From: Escherichia phage vB_EcoM_phAPEC6
Strand: one strand, 5' to 3'
DNA: 64,000 bases
Sequence record: MK817115.1
The translations under genes were made by a program, and so were the position numbers. The notes under the pieces are model-generated. The model worked only from the letters and a program-made list of their open reading frames with translations. It had not been told where the DNA came from and did no database searches. Below are positions 4,931 through 25,214 of this stretch, in pieces (position 1 is the first letter of the stretch; every line of letters begins with the position of its first letter).

Positions 4931-5295
4931 TTAACATCACCCCAACGGAATCCATTCATATAATTCAAATTCACCTCAACGAGTTCATTTGTTTTTGTAC
5001 ACCAAATTGATAGAGTTTTTGTAACATCACCAGGTGAACTTTCATACTTCACACAATACCCTTCAATGCGAAGAGTTTTGTTAGTCCAATGTTGCCACTC
5101 AATCCAAATTTCATTAGGATAATAAACCATATCTTCCTTGAACCTATGGTATTGATCCATCGGTAAGTGACCTTCAACTTCAATTACTTCAGCACTTCGA
5201 ACAAGTTTGTCAAGCTTGTACTTTATCTCAGCAAGATATTCTTCATCATTCAGACGAGTTAATAAATCTGCTGCACGTGTTGTATCAAGGCTCAT
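4927..5295 (-). CDS. hypothetical protein (122 aa)
   Basis: ORF with 4-nt overlap to downstream gene. Confidence 0.55.
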   Translation of the reverse strand: MSLDTTRAADLLTRLNDEEYLAEIKYKLDKLVRSAEVIEVEGHLPMDQYHRFKEDMVYYPNEIWIEWQHWTNKTLRIEGYCVKYESSPGDVTKTLSIWCTKTNELVEVNLNYMNGFRWGDVK

Positions 5296-6827: not shown

Positions 6828-7616
6828 TTAAATGTTAGTAGTATAGTACTTGATTTCGTGTTGAATTGCAAGTTCTATTTGTTTATTGAAAAGAATTCCA
6901 AACTCTTTGATTGATTCACAATCGAATTCAATAGAAAAAGTATACTCTGGTACACGTACATTGTCAATACCCAAATACTCTTTTATGTAAATTTTAATGA
7001 GTTCACATAGTGCAGTACTAAGACATTGAATTTCAAAATGTTTTGCACCTTTGTCAAAATACTTGAATGCATCAATATCACCTACAATAAAACTATTCTT
7101 TAATGTAGTGAATAGGTTCTCAGGAAACACGGTAATAGGTGACATTGATTTAAGAATGTATGTATCTTTGGCATTCTTAATGTACTCAATGAAGCAGTAG
7201 TTGACGTCAGGCTCGATTGAACGATCCGCGTTATGATACCAGTGTTTAAACTCACTGTATTCAGCAAACTTATGCTGGCGTAATGCGTTACAATCTTCAC
7301 ACAGTGCAGTCATGTTCTCTTTATCATTACCGCCCTGAAGACAGTCCAGTACATTATGGTCTAACGTCATGCGTACAAGGCGTTTCCCTTTAAGTACATA
7401 AGGTCTGAATTTATAACGTTCTTTAGTACTGTGCTTGTGTAAAGTGAATACTACATTTGATTCACCACAACAATCACATTTAAAGCCATCACGTGACATT
7501 ACATGAATGAGTTTGCGTGTGTTCGGTCCAAACTCAGATTTAGTAATGTTATCCACAATTTCTGATGGTTGGTAATATTTTGAATTCCGTTGAATCAGTT
7601 CATCGATAGTGCTCAT
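6828..7616 (-). CDS. HNH endonuclease (262 aa)
   Basis: HNH-type motif: CDCCG ... TLDHN ... GGNDKENMTALCEDCN (Cys pair, His, Asn, Cys pair). Confidence 0.75.
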   Translation of the reverse strand: MSTIDELIQRNSKYYQPSEIVDNITKSEFGPNTRKLIHVMSRDGFKCDCCGESNVVFTLHKHSTKERYKFRPYVLKGKRLVRMTLDHNVLDCLQGGNDKENMTALCEDCNALRQHKFAEYSEFKHWYHNADRSIEPDVNYCFIEYIKNAKDTYILKSMSPITVFPENLFTTLKNSFIVGDIDAFKYFDKGAKHFEIQCLSTALCELIKIYIKEYLGIDNVRVPEYTFSIEFDCESIKEFGILFNKQIELAIQHEIKYYTTNI

Positions 7617-7847
7617 TTACATTATTCCTTCTATGCAACAACCAAGAATTACTTTTTTAACTTCAACAACTCGTACCAAATAGAATCCATTTGAAAAGTT
7701 AAAACTATACATTTGTACTAAGGCATCTGCTTCAGATTTCGCACGGATACATGATAGATAAATTTCACGTATATCACCATCTAACGATACTTGTTTCTCT
7801 GCATCGATGACAATAGAACGAATCTCAAAACGAACACCATAACTCAT
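7617..7847 (-). CDS. hypothetical small protein (76 aa)
   Basis: ORF in track. Confidence 0.45.
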   Translation of the reverse strand: MSYGVRFEIRSIVIDAEKQVSLDGDIREIYLSCIRAKSEADALVQMYSFNFSNGFYLVRVVEVKKVILGCCIEGIM

Positions 7848-8053
7848 TGAGTTTGTCCTACAATAAGCTTTGTGTTAGTATTACTATTGTAACACCACAT
7901 TTGTTCTTTATTAACTGTAATCCAAATATCTTTGTTTACTTGTTCGTATGTACTATCACGTACTGCTATGCATTGATTCATGGAATTCATTGGGGTTATT
8001 TGTATACCGGAATTAACAGAGAAAGCGACTACTAAAAAGATTACTGAATTCAT
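7844..8053 (-). CDS. hypothetical secreted small protein (69 aa)
   Basis: Signal-peptide-like N-terminus; promoter at 8118..8146. Confidence 0.45.
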   Translation of the reverse strand: MNSVIFLVVAFSVNSGIQITPMNSMNQCIAVRDSTYEQVNKDIWITVNKEQMWCYNSNTNTKLIVGQTQ

Positions 8054-8117
8054 TGGATATTCCTTAATGGTTAATCATCCATCTCTTCGAGATGTCTGTT
8101 CGCTTCTAATACTACGT

Positions 8118-8146
8118 ATTCTACGCGAATGATTAATAACTGTCAA
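8118..8146 (-). promoter_or_regulatory. sigma70-type promoter (TTGACA, 17 nt, TAGAAT)
   Basis: Reverse complement reads TTGACA gttattaatcattcgcg TAGAAT. Confidence 0.5.
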
Positions 8147-8670
8147 GGACTTTTAATATTGACGGGATTTGAGGAAGGGATTTTTCTTCCCCCCACAAGG
8201 AGGGAAATTTGACGCTGATGGTATCAGAGCTATTGCATTGAAGATTACTCATAACGAGTGCGAAAGCGGGTCATCCTGTTTCTCTCTACTTCAGTTTCAT
8301 ATGACGGTCTACACTTTTAAACATAGTGTATCTTCATTAAGTATCTATGCAATCAAATACTTAATGTGAGTACTCAAATTTTGGACGCAACTTTCCTGTA
8401 CAAAATTCGATAACTCTCCCTTAGATAATTCGTAAGGTGTTATCCTTATATGTCTATCAAGGAACCACCAGCTATCCTAACGTGGTTCTTTATACAGCCG
8501 CATTGCCGTGAGGGGTTCAAACTATGCCCACATCTAACGGGTTTCTTTTGCTGTTCGCACTGTCGGACTGCTCAACTGCCCTCTACGTTTTCGAGTGGAT
8601 CAGGTACATGAATATCATGCCAACAGAATTGTACAAGATAATTATATCACAAACTTTTACTTCATCCCAT

Positions 8671-8695
8671 AAAAAAAGGTTGGCATAAGCCAACC
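8671..8695 (-). terminator. rho-independent terminator of sigma-factor gene
   Basis: 7-bp GC-rich hairpin ggttggc/gccaacc followed on minus strand by a run of 7 T. Confidence 0.65.
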
Positions 8696-8703
8696 CTTGT
8701 TCT

Positions 8704-9669
8704 TTAGAAATCTTCGTATTCGTACCCTTTTGCAAGTACTAACTTCTTAAGCTTTTGCATAGCTTCACTGTACTTTCGGTGTATTGATGAACGGGATTTA
8801 ACATATTTTCCATTATCATCAACAAAACCATTATCAGCAATCTCACGAAGCGTTTCAGGTTCATATTCACCTAGACCATGAACACGCTGGATAATCTCAC
8901 GTTCTTTAGTACTCAATTCGTTAGTTAGTTCATTGATAGCATAACGTAAAGGTGCACGGATACTATCAACATTGAGGTTAAAATCAGAAGCAGGTGAATG
9001 AATAATGTCACCTAATGTACCATCTGTAACACCGTCTAATGGTGCATCCAGTGAAGTGTATTCGCTTTGAAATAATAAACAATTATTAACATGCTGAATC
9101 TCAATCCCAGTACCCTCTGAGATTATTTCAGGTGTTGGGCGAACACCATGTTTACGCATATATTCCTGGCAGAATCTTTTTACTTTGATCTTATGAACAC
9201 TCATATAACGTGGGAAGTGTACCATATAGTTAGCGTCAGAACTTTCGTTATAAACTGTCATGTAAATACTAGAAGAAGCATAGGTAATGAACTTCACATT
9301 CTTATTAAGATCAAAGGTTTTTAGTGCTCTCATGAACCCCTCAACACCATATGAAATCTTATCTTCAAATGGGATATAACAAGTACATTTACTTGCTACA
9401 TCAATAATAAGTCCATAATTGTAACGAACTAACAGTTCAGTGTTTTTCTTTACATTGATACCAGCTTGAATATCACGAATTAGATCTTCATTGGAAACAT
9501 TTGGTGGTCGCTTAAGTGTAATATTATATTTGAAACTGCTTTGTACTTTACCTTCATTTTCATCTTTATCTTCAACGAAATCTAAGGCTTCTAGTGTGTT
9601 GACTTCTTCATTAGCAAAACATTCATCCAGAACTTCTTCGGCAATTGTATTTAAATCAAGCTTTTTCAC
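8704..9669 (-). CDS. sigma-70 family RNA polymerase sigma factor (321 aa)
   Basis: Region 2-like segment (LIRDIQAGINVKKNTELLVRYNYGLIIDVASK) and region 4 HTH-like C-terminus (TLREIADNGFVDDNGKYVKSRSSIHRKYSEAMQKLKK). Confidence 0.75.
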   Translation of the reverse strand: MKKLDLNTIAEEVLDECFANEEVNTLEALDFVEDKDENEGKVQSSFKYNITLKRPPNVSNEDLIRDIQAGINVKKNTELLVRYNYGLIIDVASKCTCYIPFEDKISYGVEGFMRALKTFDLNKNVKFITYASSSIYMTVYNESSDANYMVHFPRYMSVHKIKVKRFCQEYMRKHGVRPTPEIISEGTGIEIQHVNNCLLFQSEYTSLDAPLDGVTDGTLGDIIHSPASDFNLNVDSIRAPLRYAINELTNELSTKEREIIQRVHGLGEYEPETLREIADNGFVDDNGKYVKSRSSIHRKYSEAMQKLKKLVLAKGYEYEDF

Positions 9670-20939: not shown

Positions 20940-21029
<90 letters not shown>

Positions 21030-21041
21030 AGAAGTAAGATA

Positions 21042-21142
<101 letters not shown>

Positions 21143-21194
21143 GCCAAGAGTCGGCATAGGTGCAGCACTACAAAGTTCTTCAAGCTGCTTGGTA

Positions 21195-21226
<32 letters not shown>

Positions 21227-21227
21227 T

Positions 21228-21284
<57 letters not shown>

Positions 21285-21286
21285 TA

Positions 21287-21414
<128 letters not shown>

Positions 21415-21433
21415 GCATACTCGAAGTACCTCT

Positions 21434-21837
<404 letters not shown>

Positions 21838-21846
21838 TAATACCCG

Positions 21847-22248
21847 CTAGTAGTTTAAGTCTGCGGCGTTGAATACACCAAGTGAAGTCTTACCACGTAG
21901 TTTAGGTGAAAGGACATACTTTGTCAATTTCTTTTTACCGTACCAGCGATTGAATTCGTCTTCAGTGACATATGGGTTCTGGAAATCGTATTCGCGTTTC
22001 TTATGCAGTTCTTTAGCACGTTCTGCAATCTTGGTTCGTTGGTCTTCTGGAATGTCGAATGTATTGTTACGTTCACACCATTCGTGCTCTAATGCACCCT
22101 GAAGAAACTGTTCGGTTTCTTTGACTAGAGTGATTTTAGTCAAGCCTTTTTCGATGTTCATATAATCATCGACGTATCCATTCCAAATAACAATCTCTGG
22201 ATTGCCGTCAATTTCTTGAAGCATTTTGATCAAGTCATTCTTTTTCAT
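21847..22248 (-). CDS. hypothetical protein (133 aa)
   Basis: ORF; N-terminus MKKNDLIKMLQ paralogous to 21619..21834. Confidence 0.55.
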   Translation of the reverse strand: MKKNDLIKMLQEIDGNPEIVIWNGYVDDYMNIEKGLTKITLVKETEQFLQGALEHEWCERNNTFDIPEDQRTKIAERAKELHKKREYDFQNPYVTEDEFNRWYGKKKLTKYVLSPKLRGKTSLGVFNAADLNY

Positions 22249-22256
22249 TTAAATTC

Positions 22257-22514
<258 letters not shown>

Positions 22515-22535
22515 TTATACCTCTCATTGTTTATG

Positions 22536-22607
<72 letters not shown>

Positions 22608-22611
22608 TAAT

Positions 22612-23219
<608 letters not shown>

Positions 23220-23270
23220 ATAAACCTCACTATACGTAACTTACACCATATACGTCTGATTGTGGAATTC

Positions 23271-23295
23271 ATTATATCAGTACTGAACTATTTAG

Positions 23296-23299
<4 letters not shown>
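23271..23299 (-). promoter_or_regulatory. sigma70-type promoter (TTGACT, 17 nt, TATAAT)
   Basis: Reverse complement reads TTGACT aaatagttcagtactga TATAAT, with TG one base upstream of the -10 hexamer (extended -10). Confidence 0.65.
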
Positions 23300-23709
<410 letters not shown>

Positions 23710-23718
23710 CTTTTTTTT

Positions 23719-23880
<162 letters not shown>

Positions 23881-23884
<4 letters not shown>

Positions 23885-24045
23885 AATCGTACCAGTAGTT
23901 CAATTAAGTACATTTCATATGCTGGATCGTTGATAAGTTTATCATACAGATGTGGCTCTGAAATGAATTCCCAATGATACTTTAGCCATCTACCGATACC
24001 CGAATATCTAAAATTAATGTCATTCATCCATTCTTCATGTGTCAT
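23881..24045 (-). CDS. MTHEEWM mini-protein family, copy 2 (54 aa)
   Basis: MTHEEWMNDINFRYSGIGRWLKYHWEF...; near-identical to copy 3; ATGA overlap with neighbours. Confidence 0.5.
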
Positions 24046-24206
24046 AATCGTACCATTATTTCAATAAAGAACCACGGATACACTTCATGATTCATAAGTT
24101 TATCGTATTCTGCTGGGTCTGATATGATTTCCCAATGATACTTTAGCCAACTACCGATACCCGAATATCTAAAATTAATGTCATTCATCCATTCTTCATG
24201 CGTCAT
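23885..24206. repeat. tandem direct duplication (two ~160-bp units, near-identical over their 3' ~85 bp)
   Basis: 23960..24045 and 24121..24206 are almost identical at DNA level (ttcccaatgatactttagcca...cattcttcatgtgtcat). Confidence 0.7.
24042..24206 (-). CDS. MTHEEWM mini-protein family, copy 3 (54 aa)
   Basis: MTHEEWMNDINFRYSGIGSWLKYHWEI...; first gene after tRNA-Arg. Confidence 0.5.
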   Translation of the reverse strand: MTHEEWMNDINFRYSGIGSWLKYHWEIISDPAEYDKLMNHEVYPWFFIEIMVRL

Positions 24207-24229
24207 GGTTTTTAACCTTTAATTAAAAT

Positions 24230-24306
24230 TGGCCGAGGTAGAGGGACTTGAACCCCCAACCTAGAGATTAGAATTCTCTTGCACTATCCAATTGTGCTAT
24301 ACCCCG
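24230..24306 (-). tRNA. tRNA-Arg (anticodon UCU)
   Basis: Cloverleaf: D-arm GCAC/GTGC, anticodon stem AGAGA/TCTCT, loop ATTCTAA, T-loop TTCAAGT, encoded CCA. Confidence 0.8.
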
Positions 24307-24310
24307 TATT

Positions 24311-24426
<116 letters not shown>

Positions 24427-24459
24427 ATGTTATGTCCCATTATATAATGAATTAATGAT

Positions 24460-24786
24460 TTATGCAAGTGCTTTAGATACACCGACACCAATAATTCCAG
24501 TGATATCGATATGGATATTGGCAAGTTGATTACTATCATATGGGTTTGTTTCTGTAATAACCAATGTTGTATCATTGACTAAAACCACAGTACCTTTTAC
24601 ACGATAACCATGTAGTAGTACTTGAACCTCATCTTCAGGTTTTAATGATTGAATAACTTCAAATAAAGTTGTTTCCATTTTTTGTATTCCTTGTTTAGTT
24701 TTGATTATTTGACTTTCTAAATGCCAGTTCGCATATAAACCAGGGTTTTCTGGTATCCAAAACATATGACCTGAAAAGATTTTCAT
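24460..24786 (-). CDS. hypothetical protein (108 aa)
   Basis: ORF in track. Confidence 0.5.
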   Translation of the reverse strand: MKIFSGHMFWIPENPGLYANWHLESQIIKTKQGIQKMETTLFEVIQSLKPEDEVQVLLHGYRVKGTVVLVNDTTLVITETNPYDSNQLANIHIDITGIIGVGVSKALA

Positions 24787-24877
24787 CTCTTAATATATCA
24801 TAATGTACCTGACGAATGCCATTCCCAAAGCAGTCATGTTCTTTATGCTGTTTGGACATCCATTCTTCGTGTGTCAT
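24695..24877 (-). CDS. MTHEEWM mini-protein family, copy 4 (60 aa)
   Basis: Track ORF 24695..24895 trimmed to the conserved MTHEEWM start. Confidence 0.5.
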   Translation of the reverse strand: MTHEEWMSKQHKEHDCFGNGIRQVHYDILRDENLFRSYVLDTRKPWFICELAFRKSNNQN

Positions 24878-24878
24878 T

Positions 24879-25214
<336 letters not shown>

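What the first reader, a model, noticed from the sequence alone, without database searches (positions are those of the whole stretch)
8150..8670. ORF-free island of about 500 bp with elevated GC between the sigma-factor terminator and the next promoter
In an otherwise gene-dense, AT-rich genome this stretch has no convincing ORF on either strand (only a 66-aa plus-strand ORF without RBS) and is visibly richer in G+C, for example ccgcattgccgtgaggggttcaaactatgcccacatctaacggg. Such islands in phages usually encode structured RNAs (intron-like ribozyme remnant, sRNA, tRNA-like element) or are recently acquired gene remnants. I could not fold it into a tRNA or tmRNA by eye.
Basis: seen in the sequence. 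Interest (0 to 1): 0.5.

Follow-up and report, generated by a model that had tools for sequence, protein, structure and literature searches.

The report
Unannotated large structured RNA gene
The "empty" GC-rich gap after the phage sigma-factor gene is a gene for a roughly 480-nucleotide, pseudoknotted non-coding RNA that matches no Rfam 15 family; four or five old, diverged copies of it are spread around every related jumbo-phage genome examined, and I found no description of it in the papers I could search.

Summary
Window 8150-8670 has no credible ORF and is 39.9% GC against a 33.2% window mean (99th percentile).

It is not a gene remnant. On the minus strand it carries its own promoter: a TGGGAT box at 8669-8664 and an extended -10, TGaTATAAT, at 8649-8641. 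About 480 nt of conserved sequence follow (about 8634-8155).

The element is one of four dispersed copies in phage 121Q. GAP32, CBB and fHe-Yen9-04 each have five, co-oriented and 44-86 kb apart. RaK2 has at least the copy after its sigma gene.

Across 53 distinct copies (median identity 60%), a 71-pair, 15-helix structure with three pseudoknot helices is 97.3% paired. Compensatory changes occur at 53 pairs. G·U outnumbers A·C 301 to 29, which fixes the RNA strand as the window minus strand.

There is no Rfam 15 match, no tRNA or tmRNA call, no conserved ORF and no Pfam hit.

The promoter belongs to the phage's "divergent RpoD-like" class, which also precedes DNA-synthesis genes.

Function is unknown. 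My best reading is a diffusible, folded RNA made at replication time (0.45). The main rival is a cis-acting element tied to replication origins (0.25).

The parts
8675..8698 (-). Intrinsic terminator of the upstream sigma-factor gene. It insulates the RNA gene from read-through.
   Evidence: 10-bp stem, 5 GC pairs, T-run. phage G17's record annotates a terminator at the matching place.
8664..8669 (-). TGGGAT box in the -35 region, a variant of the phage-specific TG(G/A)(G/A)AC box.
   Evidence: Conserved upstream of every family member. The strict pattern TGRRAC-N14-17-TGnTATAAT occurs 14 times in 121Q, all on the + strand, against about 0.1 expected. The CBB paper describes the same class as a divergent RpoD-like promoter with -35 TGAAACG (PMC5259590).
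8641..8649 (-). Extended -10 element TGaTATAAT. The inferred transcription start is near 8634.
   Evidence: Read directly from the sequence. TATAAT is invariant in the family alignment. Found by the window pattern scan. The start site is inferred, not mapped.
8494..8634 (-). 5' domain of the RNA. P1 (8626-8620 with 8566-8560). P2 hairpin with the conserved loop CGAAAAyGUAG (8603-8576). Pseudoknot helix PKa (8571-8569 with 8559-8557). P3 (8554-8550 with 8498-8494). P3.1 (8540-8537 with 8509-8506).
   Evidence: Pair counts: P3, P3.1 and PKa are 100% paired in 53 sequences, with AU/UA/GC/CG swaps. RNAalifold recovers P2, PKa, P3 and P3.1 independently. Window coordinates.
8335..8493 (-). Central domain. 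P4 hairpin (8488-8484 with 8466-8462). Invariant GAUAG. P5 (8448-8445 with 8436-8433). Invariant AAGGGAG. A variable region with the GUACA...GUCCAAAAUUUGAG module. The long P7 hairpin (8366-8354 with 8347-8335).
   Evidence: P4 has 3-4 pair types at every position; in P7, 10 of 12 pairs show changes on both sides. One search adds P5 (AU:37, GC:14). Coordinates.
8233..8334 (-). 3' pseudoknotted core, the most conserved part. GACCGU. Helix Hm (8304-8301 with 8274-8271), which interleaves with P9 (8293-8289 with 8243-8239) and P10 (8286-8282 with 8266-8262). P11 (8259-8257 with 8249-8247). The PKb 3' strand (8237-8233), which pairs with the P7 loop (8352-8348).
   Evidence: P9, P10, Hm and PKb are each 100% paired in all sequences, with compensatory changes at 16 of their 19 pairs. 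The window copy keeps Hm through a compensatory UCAU/AUGA. This core is what survives in the divergent metagenomic subfamily and in RaK2.
8155..8232 (-). 3' tail. Conserved CAUCrGCGUCA, the P13 hairpin (8203-8198 with 8194-8189) with an almost invariant G6 run, then a conserved block ending CAAAUCCCGUCAAUAUU. The window subtype has no terminator hairpin here.
   Evidence: the 5' arm of P13 varies only C to U against the G run, which is G·U-compatible only on this strand. In three of the five positional subtypes an intrinsic terminator sits between CGUCAG and P13.
8118..8146 (-). Sigma-70-type promoter TTGACA-17-TAGAAT for the downstream protein genes. It marks the end of the RNA locus.
   Evidence: 11 of 12 matches. 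A TTGAC(A/T) element follows most family members at the matching place.

Best explanation
Window 8669-8155, minus strand, is an independent gene for a non-coding RNA of about 480 nt with a complex fold. The fold has at least 15 helices, three of them pseudoknot helices, and many invariant unpaired nucleotides.

The RNA is transcribed from a phage-specific promoter (a TGGGAy box plus an extended -10). The same promoter class drives the phage's DNA-replication genes and a tRNA cluster, so the RNA is probably made in the middle, replication phase of infection.

It is one of four (Asteriusvirus) or five (GAP32, CBB, fHe-Yen9-04) old paralogues, each kept at its own chromosomal position.

Shown: the family, its boundaries, its conserved secondary structure, the RNA strand, the absence of coding potential, and the promoter class.

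Inferred: the product works as a released, folded RNA (a ribozyme, a scaffold for a protein-RNA complex, or a self-assembling particle in the manner of GOLLD/ROOL), not as a message or a DNA site. In three of the five positional subtypes the structured body is followed by a subtype-specific intrinsic terminator that would release it. Its biochemical activity is not known.

I put about 0.9 on 'structured RNA gene' and 0.45 on 'diffusible, trans-acting RNA'. The confidence given is the second figure.
For: Family and copy number. There are four copies in 121Q, all in unannotated gaps and all in the same orientation. GAP32, CBB and fHe-Yen9-04 have five. About 65 nhmmer hits come from viral contigs and 81 of 83 from metagenome loci.

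Structure. On A1 (53 distinct sequences, median identity about 60%), 97.3% of cells are paired, against 78.3% in shuffles and 37-45% when partners are slid. Fifty-three of 71 pairs change on both sides. There are 627 compensatory cells against 159 in shuffles, and 0 of 500 shuffles reach the observed values. RNAalifold independently recovers 10 of the helices, with 33 of 53 predicted pairs compensatory.

Strand. G·U/U·G cells number 301 and A·C/C·A cells 29.

Promoter. TGnTATAAT and the TGRRAC box are conserved. The class is strongly over-represented in 121Q and sits upstream of the SSB, primase, exonuclease and gp55-like sigma genes (PMC5259590). In the window it also precedes tRNA-Ser.

Terminators. 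Stems differ between subtypes but all carry U6-9 runs.

Not coding. Not a known RNA.
Against: No expression data exist for any member, so the promoter, the start site and the 3' end are all inferred.

The window subtype and one other lack the terminator.

The roughly 50-nt tail with the G6 run is as conserved as the core, yet in three subtypes it lies downstream of the terminator. A simple released-RNA model does not explain that.

Even spacing, co-orientation and the separate retention of every positional paralogue suggest a role tied to location, not a diffusible one.

Single-sequence folding is not distinctive: z = -1.7 on the minus strand and -1.4 on the plus strand.

The curated structure was chosen on the same alignment on which it was scored.
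Confidence: 0.45

Rival explanations
1. A cis-acting chromosomal element: a replication origin, or a locus that organises replication, defined by its RNA. Transcription from the middle-type promoter would yield an RNA that primes or licenses DNA synthesis at each of the four or five loci. The conserved tail (G6 run plus CAAAYCNCGUCA) could be where an RNA-DNA hybrid forms or where an initiator protein binds. This would resemble T4 oriF/oriG R-loops or ColE1 RNA II, but with a far more elaborate RNA.
For: The five copies are 44-86 kb apart and all in one orientation. The chance of a smallest gap this large under random placement on a circle is 0.001-0.02 per genome, but gene order is shared between these genomes, so this is effectively one observation.

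Each positional orthologue is retained across genera. That includes the copy lying between minus-strand genes, where the RNA is antisense to its neighbours.

The promoter class is the one that drives replication genes. In T4, the origin transcripts of oriF and oriG start at middle-mode promoters, and at least five origins fire early (PMC3016281).

The phage encodes UvsW-like, RNase H, gp41/61-like and gp43-like proteins.

The tail is conserved even beyond the terminators.
Against: T4 origins share no sequence motif, and their R-loops do not depend on specific sequence (PMC3016281). A 480-nt pseudoknotted RNA with many invariant unpaired bases has no precedent in a primer.

Intrinsic terminators in three subtypes should release the RNA before the tail.

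No unusually AT-rich unwinding element was seen downstream, but this was judged by eye and not quantified.

GC skew across 121Q follows gene orientation only and shows no inflection at the loci.

Dispersal and divergence of direct repeats could also be explained by selection against repeat-mediated deletions in a phage that recombines heavily. That last point is my inference.
Confidence: 0.25
2. A cis-regulatory leader, such as a processive-antitermination RNA (like put of HK022) or a riboswitch-like element. It would be transcribed ahead of the downstream gene block and would modify RNA polymerase or control read-through of the terminator that follows it.
For: The architecture is promoter, then a large structured RNA, then (in three subtypes) a terminator, then genes in the same direction. 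Most copies sit at the head of a co-directional gene block and are followed by another promoter.
Against: The copy next to the EndoVII gene points into oppositely oriented genes. Downstream genes have their own strong sigma-70 promoter. Two subtypes have no terminator to regulate. The size and pseudoknot content far exceed known antitermination RNAs. No Rfam riboswitch or leader model matches.
Confidence: 0.1
3. The conservation acts on DNA, not RNA: either a protein-binding region or a structured single-strand initiation signal.
For: The G6 run and CGUCAG boxes are almost invariant, as a protein site could be. A folded single DNA strand would also tolerate G·T.
Against: A conserved promoter lies upstream and terminators lie downstream. 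There are long-range and pseudoknot helices with full Watson-Crick compensation over about 450 nt. The strong G·U over A·C asymmetry fits one transcribed strand.
Confidence: 0.07
4. A decayed protein gene, or simply a spurious gap.
For: Several GenBank records place 'hypothetical protein' ORFs over the region.
Against: No ORF is conserved in frame, strand or position. No Pfam hits. Orthologues differ by indels that are not multiples of three. The substitution pattern fits base pairing, not codons. The possible micro-ORF in the tail varies at codon positions 1 and 2, and the window copy has no start codon (read).
Confidence: 0.02

Closest known systems
GOLLD and ROOL, large 'ornate' non-coding RNAs carried by phages and prophages
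   Same: Several hundred nucleotides long, with many helices and pseudoknots. Phage-borne, with their own transcription unit and no known biochemical function. This is the nearest analogue for how the RNA might work, as a self-folding particle that may assemble into multimers (PMC12286853, listed; only its title and abstract opening were seen).
   Different: There is no similarity to any Rfam model. The window copy is not next to tRNA genes. Here there are four or five diverged paralogues per genome at conserved, evenly spaced positions, which to my knowledge has not been reported for GOLLD or ROOL. Oligomerisation was not tested.
Bacteriophage T4 R-loop origins oriF and oriG
   Same: A T4-related replication machinery. 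Several dispersed loci per genome (T4 has at least five early origins). Transcripts start at a promoter that combines a phage-specific -30/-35 box with a normal -10 (PMC3016281).
   Different: T4 origins share no sequence and need only a promoter plus an AT-rich unwinding element of about 100 bp. Here about 480 nt of sequence and structure are conserved, and many copies end in a terminator. Origin activity is untested.
ColE1 RNA II primer
   Same: A structured RNA of about 500 nt whose folding matters. In ColE1 a G-run in the RNA helps form the persistent hybrid (from my own knowledge). The present RNA has an almost invariant G6 run near its 3' end.
   Different: No homology. No antisense RNA I-type partner was looked for. 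It sits in a phage chromosome with several copies. Terminators lie upstream of the G-run in three subtypes.
PA5oct ncRNA001-004, non-coding RNAs of a related jumbo phage supported by RNA-seq
   Same: A related jumbo phage lineage. Four ORF-free, actively transcribed regions of 236-619 nt, two of them highly expressed throughout infection (PMC7318152).
   Different: The two tested (ncRNA001 and ncRNA002, locus L135) show no sequence similarity to the family profile by nhmmer --max. ncRNA003 and ncRNA004 were not tested. No structure has been described for them.

Membership tests
Any Rfam 15 family (including GOLLD, ROOL, group I and II introns, RNase P RNA, 6S, HEARO, raiA, riboswitches) | A match to the family covariance model at or near its gathering score | tested here: not met
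   cmscan in permissive E-value mode on window 7500-9300 and on 10 loci that hold family members. Only terminator-like sub-threshold hits appeared, at 15-36 bits against cut-offs of 43-99, and none lay inside the conserved body.
tRNA / tmRNA / tRNA-like element | A cloverleaf or tmRNA architecture detectable by ARAGORN | tested here: not met
   ARAGORN finds seven tRNAs in the window, all at 20950-25192, and nothing at 8150-8670.
Group I / II self-splicing intron | Insertion within a host gene, with exon continuity across the element | tested here: not met
   All copies lie in intergenic gaps between complete ORFs and have their own promoter. No flanking ORF is interrupted.
T4-type R-loop replication origin (oriF/oriG) | A phage-specific middle-type promoter driving the origin transcript | tested here: met
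   The TGRRAC box plus extended -10 belong to the class found upstream of replication genes. The timing of expression is inferred only.
T4-type R-loop replication origin (oriF/oriG) | An AT-rich DNA unwinding element just downstream of the promoter, and a persistent R-loop | tested here: inconclusive
   The sequence downstream of the promoter is the GC-enriched structured RNA (40% GC). No unusually AT-rich block was seen by eye downstream of the tail, and this was not quantified. R-loop formation cannot be tested with these tools.
T4-type R-loop replication origin (oriF/oriG) | Autonomous or early replication initiating at the locus | not testable with these tools
   This needs nascent-strand mapping or 2D gels. 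GC skew is uninformative because it follows gene orientation.
GOLLD/ROOL-like ornate RNA (functional resemblance only) | A large multi-helix fold with pseudoknots, supported by covariation | tested here: met
   15 helices and 71 pairs, 53 of them with changes on both sides, including three pseudoknot helices.
GOLLD/ROOL-like ornate RNA (functional resemblance only) | Assembly of the RNA alone into homo-oligomers | not testable with these tools
   This needs native gels or cryo-EM of the transcript.
Protein-coding gene or pseudogene | A conserved reading frame or a detectable protein homologue | tested here: not met
   The longest ORFs are 31-85 aa, at different positions and strands in different copies. 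No Pfam hits for the five window ORFs.
Recently mobile repeat (MITE / IS remnant) | Near-identical copies within a genome, with presence or absence varying between close relatives | tested here: not met
   Paralogues within a genome are about 60-70% identical, whereas positional orthologues are conserved across genera.

The most novel reading that the evidence does not exclude
The four or five evenly spaced, co-oriented loci are chromosomal control points of the jumbo-phage genome, most plausibly replication origins or replication-organising centres. Their activity would depend on a conserved, ribozyme-like, pseudoknotted RNA made on the spot. That would be an 'RNA-defined origin', a type not known in any phage. 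A further unexcluded possibility is that the five diverged paralogues assemble into one hetero-oligomeric RNA particle.
Probability: 0.25. Interest if true: 0.9.

Novelty: categorically new. Interest (0 to 1): 0.78.

Why it matters
Large RNAs with intricate conserved folds are rare. Most of the well-known ones turned out to be ribozymes or the cores of major cellular machines. The few without a known function (GOLLD, ROOL, OLE) are under active study.

This candidate class is of that size. Its covariation support is very strong, and every genome of a whole clade of 350-kb phages that I examined carries it. These phages infect E. coli, Salmonella, Klebsiella, Cronobacter, Erwinia, Yersinia and Xanthomonas, and several are candidates for phage therapy. 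Every annotation I inspected either leaves it blank or covers it with spurious small ORFs.

The unusual layout makes the question of function directly testable in a culturable E. coli phage. There are five old paralogues, evenly spaced and co-oriented, driven by the promoter class of the replication genes. If the RNA is linked to origin function, it would also locate the so far unmapped origins of these genomes.

At the least, the family should be added to Rfam and to phage annotation pipelines.

Tried and rejected
- **Rfam.** Scans in permissive E-value mode on the window copy and on 10 other loci gave only terminator-like noise.
- **ARAGORN.** Nothing at the locus.
- **Single-sequence folding.** Both strands gave weak z-scores (-1.7 and -1.4), so this cannot decide the strand or the structure.
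- **Other copies in the window.** BLAST and nhmmer found none. The other copies lie outside these 64 kb.
- **Homology to PA5oct RNAs.** ncRNA001 and ncRNA002 showed none by nhmmer.
- **Coding potential.** No conserved ORF and no Pfam hit. I considered a possible 10-21-codon ORF starting at GGGGGGAUG in the tail. I rejected it because changes fall on codon positions 1 and 2 and the window copy has AAG in place of AUG (read).
- **GC skew of the 121Q genome as an origin signal.** It only mirrors gene orientation.
- **Alternative long-range pairings.** I checked the 5' UGAC with either GUCA box, and GCGGGG with UCUCGU. They show only conserved sequence or one-sided changes, so I left them out of the model. 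RNAalifold does propose a 3-bp closing helix between the 5' and 3' ends, again with one-sided changes only.
- **Automated helix selection.** Greedy and maximum-weight methods mixed real helices with spurious long-range ones, so I curated the helices by hand.
- **Bacterial genome scan.** It returned mostly chance matches in GC-rich genomes. Only two were true hits, both on contigs of Enterobacteriaceae metagenome-assembled genomes (a Buttiauxella and an uncultured Enterobacteriaceae bin).
- **Literature.** Searches and five phage genome or comparative papers (UE-S1, fEgEco12, CBB, PA5oct, and the Iyer et al. jumbo-phage review) contain no description of this RNA. The GAP32 paper is not in the library.

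Full report
**1.

Window 8150-8670 lies between two features on the minus strand. Upstream is the stop of a sigma-70-family gene (8704-9669) with its intrinsic terminator (8698-8675). Downstream is a near-consensus sigma-70 promoter (8146-8118) for the next genes.

The only ORFs inside are 39-66 aa. GC is 39.9% against a window mean of 33.2%, the 99th percentile of 521-bp windows. The sub-block 8440-8620 reaches 46%.

**2. Which phage this is**

The window is 99-100% identical to Asteriusvirus jumbo phages: slurp01, G17, SP27, 121Q and PBECO4. Most of these records annotate nothing under the region. A few cover it with small "hypothetical proteins". UE-S1 marks a "repeat_region" there.

**3. 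The element is a family, not a single locus**

A sensitive BLAST found the 450-bp stretch at about 70% identity in Cronobacter GAP32, Pectobacterium CBB, Serratia BF, Yersinia fHe-Yen9, and in Erwinia, Salmonella, Klebsiella and Xanthomonas jumbo phages. Each genome had three to five matching places.

I loaded the whole 121Q genome. It holds four copies, at 90.2-90.8 kb (the window copy), 192.8-193.3 kb, 247.5-247.9 kb and 326.6-327.1 kb. All are in unannotated gaps and all point the same way.

Pattern scans of IMG/VR and a profile search gave about 65 hits. GAP32, CBB and fHe-Yen9-04 each have five copies, at roughly 30, 95, 175, 260 and 337 kb.

A metagenome scan added 81 more loci. Among them is a divergent subfamily that keeps only the 3' core and the tail. 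RaK2 has a full-length copy directly after its own sigma-factor gene, the same context as in the window, and its ORF245 is annotated over it. A scan of bacterial genomes returned only two true hits, both on contigs of Enterobacteriaceae metagenome-assembled genomes.

**4. Anatomy on the window minus strand**

Every copy begins with a conserved TG(G/A)(G/A)AC box and an extended -10, TGnTATAAT. In the window these are TGGGAT at 8669-8664 and TGaTATAAT at 8649-8641.

About 480-560 nt follow, with blocks that are nearly invariant across genera:
- CGAAAAyGUA
- CACGGCAAUrCGGC
- GAUAG
- AAGGGAG
- CGACCGUU
- GAAAC
- AACCCGC
- CAUCGUCAG

In three of the five positional subtypes an intrinsic terminator comes next. 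Its stem differs between subtypes and its U-run is 6-9 long. The window subtype has none.

All copies then carry a hairpin, CCCCUG/GGGGGG, with an almost invariant G6 run, followed by AUGNAAA...CAAAYCNCGUCA. Most copies are followed by a TTGAC(A/T) promoter for the downstream genes.

**5. It is a structured RNA**

I aligned the window copy with 52 distinct relatives (A1; the underlying set of 53 copies has median pairwise identity about 60%). I then curated 71 base pairs in 15 helices.

| Measure | Observed | Shuffled | Partners slid |
|---|---|---|---|
| Cells paired | 97.3% | 78.3 ± 0.4% | 37-45% |
| Compensatory cells | 627 | 159 | 54-78 |
| Pairs changed on both sides | 53 of 71 | 39.2 | 16-23 |

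None of 500 shuffles reached the observed values.

- Helices P3, P3.1, P9, P10, PKa, PKb and Hm are paired in every sequence, and in most positions carry two to four different pair types.
- Three helices are pseudoknots. PKa crosses P1. PKb joins the P7 loop to a downstream strand. Hm interleaves with P9 and P10.
- RNAalifold cannot predict pseudoknots and was run independently. It recovers P2, PKa, P3, P3.1, P4, P5, P9, P10, P11 and P13, with 33 of 53 predicted pairs compensatory.
- All of these helices can form in the window copy, some through compensatory changes such as UCAU/AUGA in Hm.
- G·U pairs outnumber A·C 301 to 29, so the folded strand is the window minus strand. That is the strand with the promoter and the terminators.

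Two caveats apply. The structure was selected on the same alignment on which it was scored, and the sequences are related to each other. The size of the effect, the slid controls and the independent prediction make chance very unlikely.

**6. What it is not**

- It is not any Rfam 15 family.
- It is not a tRNA or tmRNA.
- It is not coding: no ORF is conserved in frame, strand or place, and there are no Pfam hits.
- It is not an intron, because it interrupts no gene.
- It is not a recently mobile repeat. Paralogues within a genome are 60-70% identical, while positional orthologues are kept across genera.
- It is not homologous to ncRNA001 or ncRNA002 of PA5oct, the two RNA-seq-defined RNAs I tested.

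**7. Context and regulation**

Each copy has a conserved neighbourhood from CBB to 121Q:
- one lies ahead of the Dam methyltransferase and cytidyltransferase genes;
- one lies between the spanin/structural genes and a Dps-like gene;
- one lies between endonuclease VII and baseplate-hub genes, both on the opposite strand, so there the RNA is antisense to its neighbours.

The window copy lies after the sigma factor, as does the copy in RaK2. Its best BLAST match in CBB is the copy next to the endonuclease V (denV) gene. Asteriusvirus has lost one of the five positions.

The promoter class TGRRAC-N-TGnTATAAT occurs 14 times in strict form in 121Q, against about 0.1 expected, always on the + strand. 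It sits upstream of the gp32-like SSB, primase, exonuclease and gp55-like late sigma genes, among others. The CBB paper describes the same class as a "divergent RpoD-like promoter" with -35 TGAAACG, enriched before DNA-synthesis genes (PMC5259590). In the window a second instance directly precedes tRNA-Ser. The RNA is therefore probably made with the replication genes. This is an inference.

**8. Mechanism**

The shown facts establish a gene for a large, intricately folded RNA. They do not establish what the RNA does.

*For a released, trans-acting RNA (0.45).* Each copy is an insulated transcription unit. The terminators are genuine and subtype-specific. The fold is ribozyme-like, with many invariant unpaired bases. 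Peripheral modules vary and appear to have been exchanged between paralogues.

*For a cis-acting role tied to location, most naturally replication origins (0.25).* The copies are evenly spaced: the chance of so large a smallest gap is 0.001-0.02 per genome. For CBB, correcting for the terminal repeat included in the record (genome sizes from PMC5259590) gives about 0.005 by my own arithmetic. Because gene order is shared, this is effectively one observation. The copies are co-oriented even against local gene direction. Every positional paralogue is retained. The promoter class parallels T4 origin transcripts, and T4 has at least five early origins (PMC3016281). The tail is conserved beyond the terminators.

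*Against the origin model.* T4 origins share no motif and need no specific RNA sequence. Terminators should release the RNA before the tail. GC skew gives no signal.

A leader or antitermination role (0.1) is weakened by the antisense copy and by the separate downstream promoters. A purely DNA-level role (0.07) and a decayed gene (0.02) are unlikely.

**9. Novelty**

I found no description in Rfam 15, in the annotation of any record I inspected, or in the searchable literature. The GAP32 paper could not be read.

By sequence and structure this is a new RNA class. Its layout, with five old paralogues evenly spaced and co-oriented, has no parallel that I know of among large bacterial or phage RNAs.

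The nearest analogues for how it might work are GOLLD/ROOL (a folded RNA particle) and T4 oriF/oriG or ColE1 RNA II (origin transcripts). It is a member of none of these.

Noticed in passing
window 24439-24411 (-) and 52658-52630 (-); 121Q (L003-L009) at 5263, 15293, 21683, 27380, 101439, 202713, 206597, 208846, 223612, 258185, 277198 and 321899: A phage-specific promoter class, TG(G/A)(G/A)AC-N14-17-TGnTATAAT. In 121Q it is strongly over-represented, all on one strand, upstream of the SSB, primase, exonuclease and gp55-like sigma genes. In the window it lies directly upstream of tRNA-Ser(tga). The CBB paper knows it as the 'divergent RpoD-like' promoter. Which factor reads the box is unknown; the phage sigma factor encoded just upstream of the RNA gene is a candidate.
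   Followed up: partly
window 8155-8203 (-), and the matching tail in all family members: The tail with the G6 hairpin and the CAAAYCNCGUCA box is as conserved as the RNA core. In three of the five subtypes it lies downstream of an intrinsic terminator. It could be a long isoform, a DNA site, or a G-run that forms an R-loop. Unexplained.
   Followed up: partly
A1 columns ~330-360 versus ~500-530 (e.g. L019:1126-1665 versus L028:6237-6765); in the window about 8375-8405 (-): A module of about 27 nt, GNAC-AAUAUAGAUCC-GUNC-AAAAUUYGAG, sits in the central region in some subtypes and inside helix P11 in others. The insert in P3.1 has two alternative forms spread in a mosaic among subtypes and genera. 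Both suggest module exchange between paralogues.
   Followed up: no
L283, L288, L314, L317, L319, L329, L341 (ENA metagenome contigs): A divergent subfamily with a different 5' domain but the same 3' pseudoknotted core, AAGGGAG box and G6-AUGGAAAU tail. I did not identify which phage lineage it comes from.
   Followed up: partly
L005:35194-37161 (121Q 135,194-137,161; outside the window): A 2-kb stretch with no annotated gene in 121Q. It contains a loose match to the same promoter class at 135,737. It may hold further unannotated RNA or small genes.
   Followed up: no
L345:1490-1696 (RaK2 ORF245); records OR699282, PP886230, PQ330092, PQ390715 and the OR6991xx Salmonella phage records, under the window-equivalent region: Gene callers have placed one to four 'hypothetical protein' ORFs on top of the RNA gene in several GenBank records. 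These are probably annotation artefacts.
   Followed up: partly
window 20950-25192 (-): A cluster of seven tRNA genes, including a tRNA-Ser called with the unusual anticodon ACT (22709-22800) and 90-nt tRNA-Met and tRNA-Ser calls. The 121Q record annotates the matching genes somewhat differently: tRNA-Leu(taa) where ARAGORN calls tRNA-Arg(tct).
   Followed up: no
window 6828-7616 (-): A 262-aa ORF, two small ORFs downstream of the RNA gene, annotated as an HNH endonuclease in 121Q (gene 170). Another HNH gene lies near the 247-kb copy in 121Q. This is probably coincidence in a genome rich in HNH genes.
   Followed up: no
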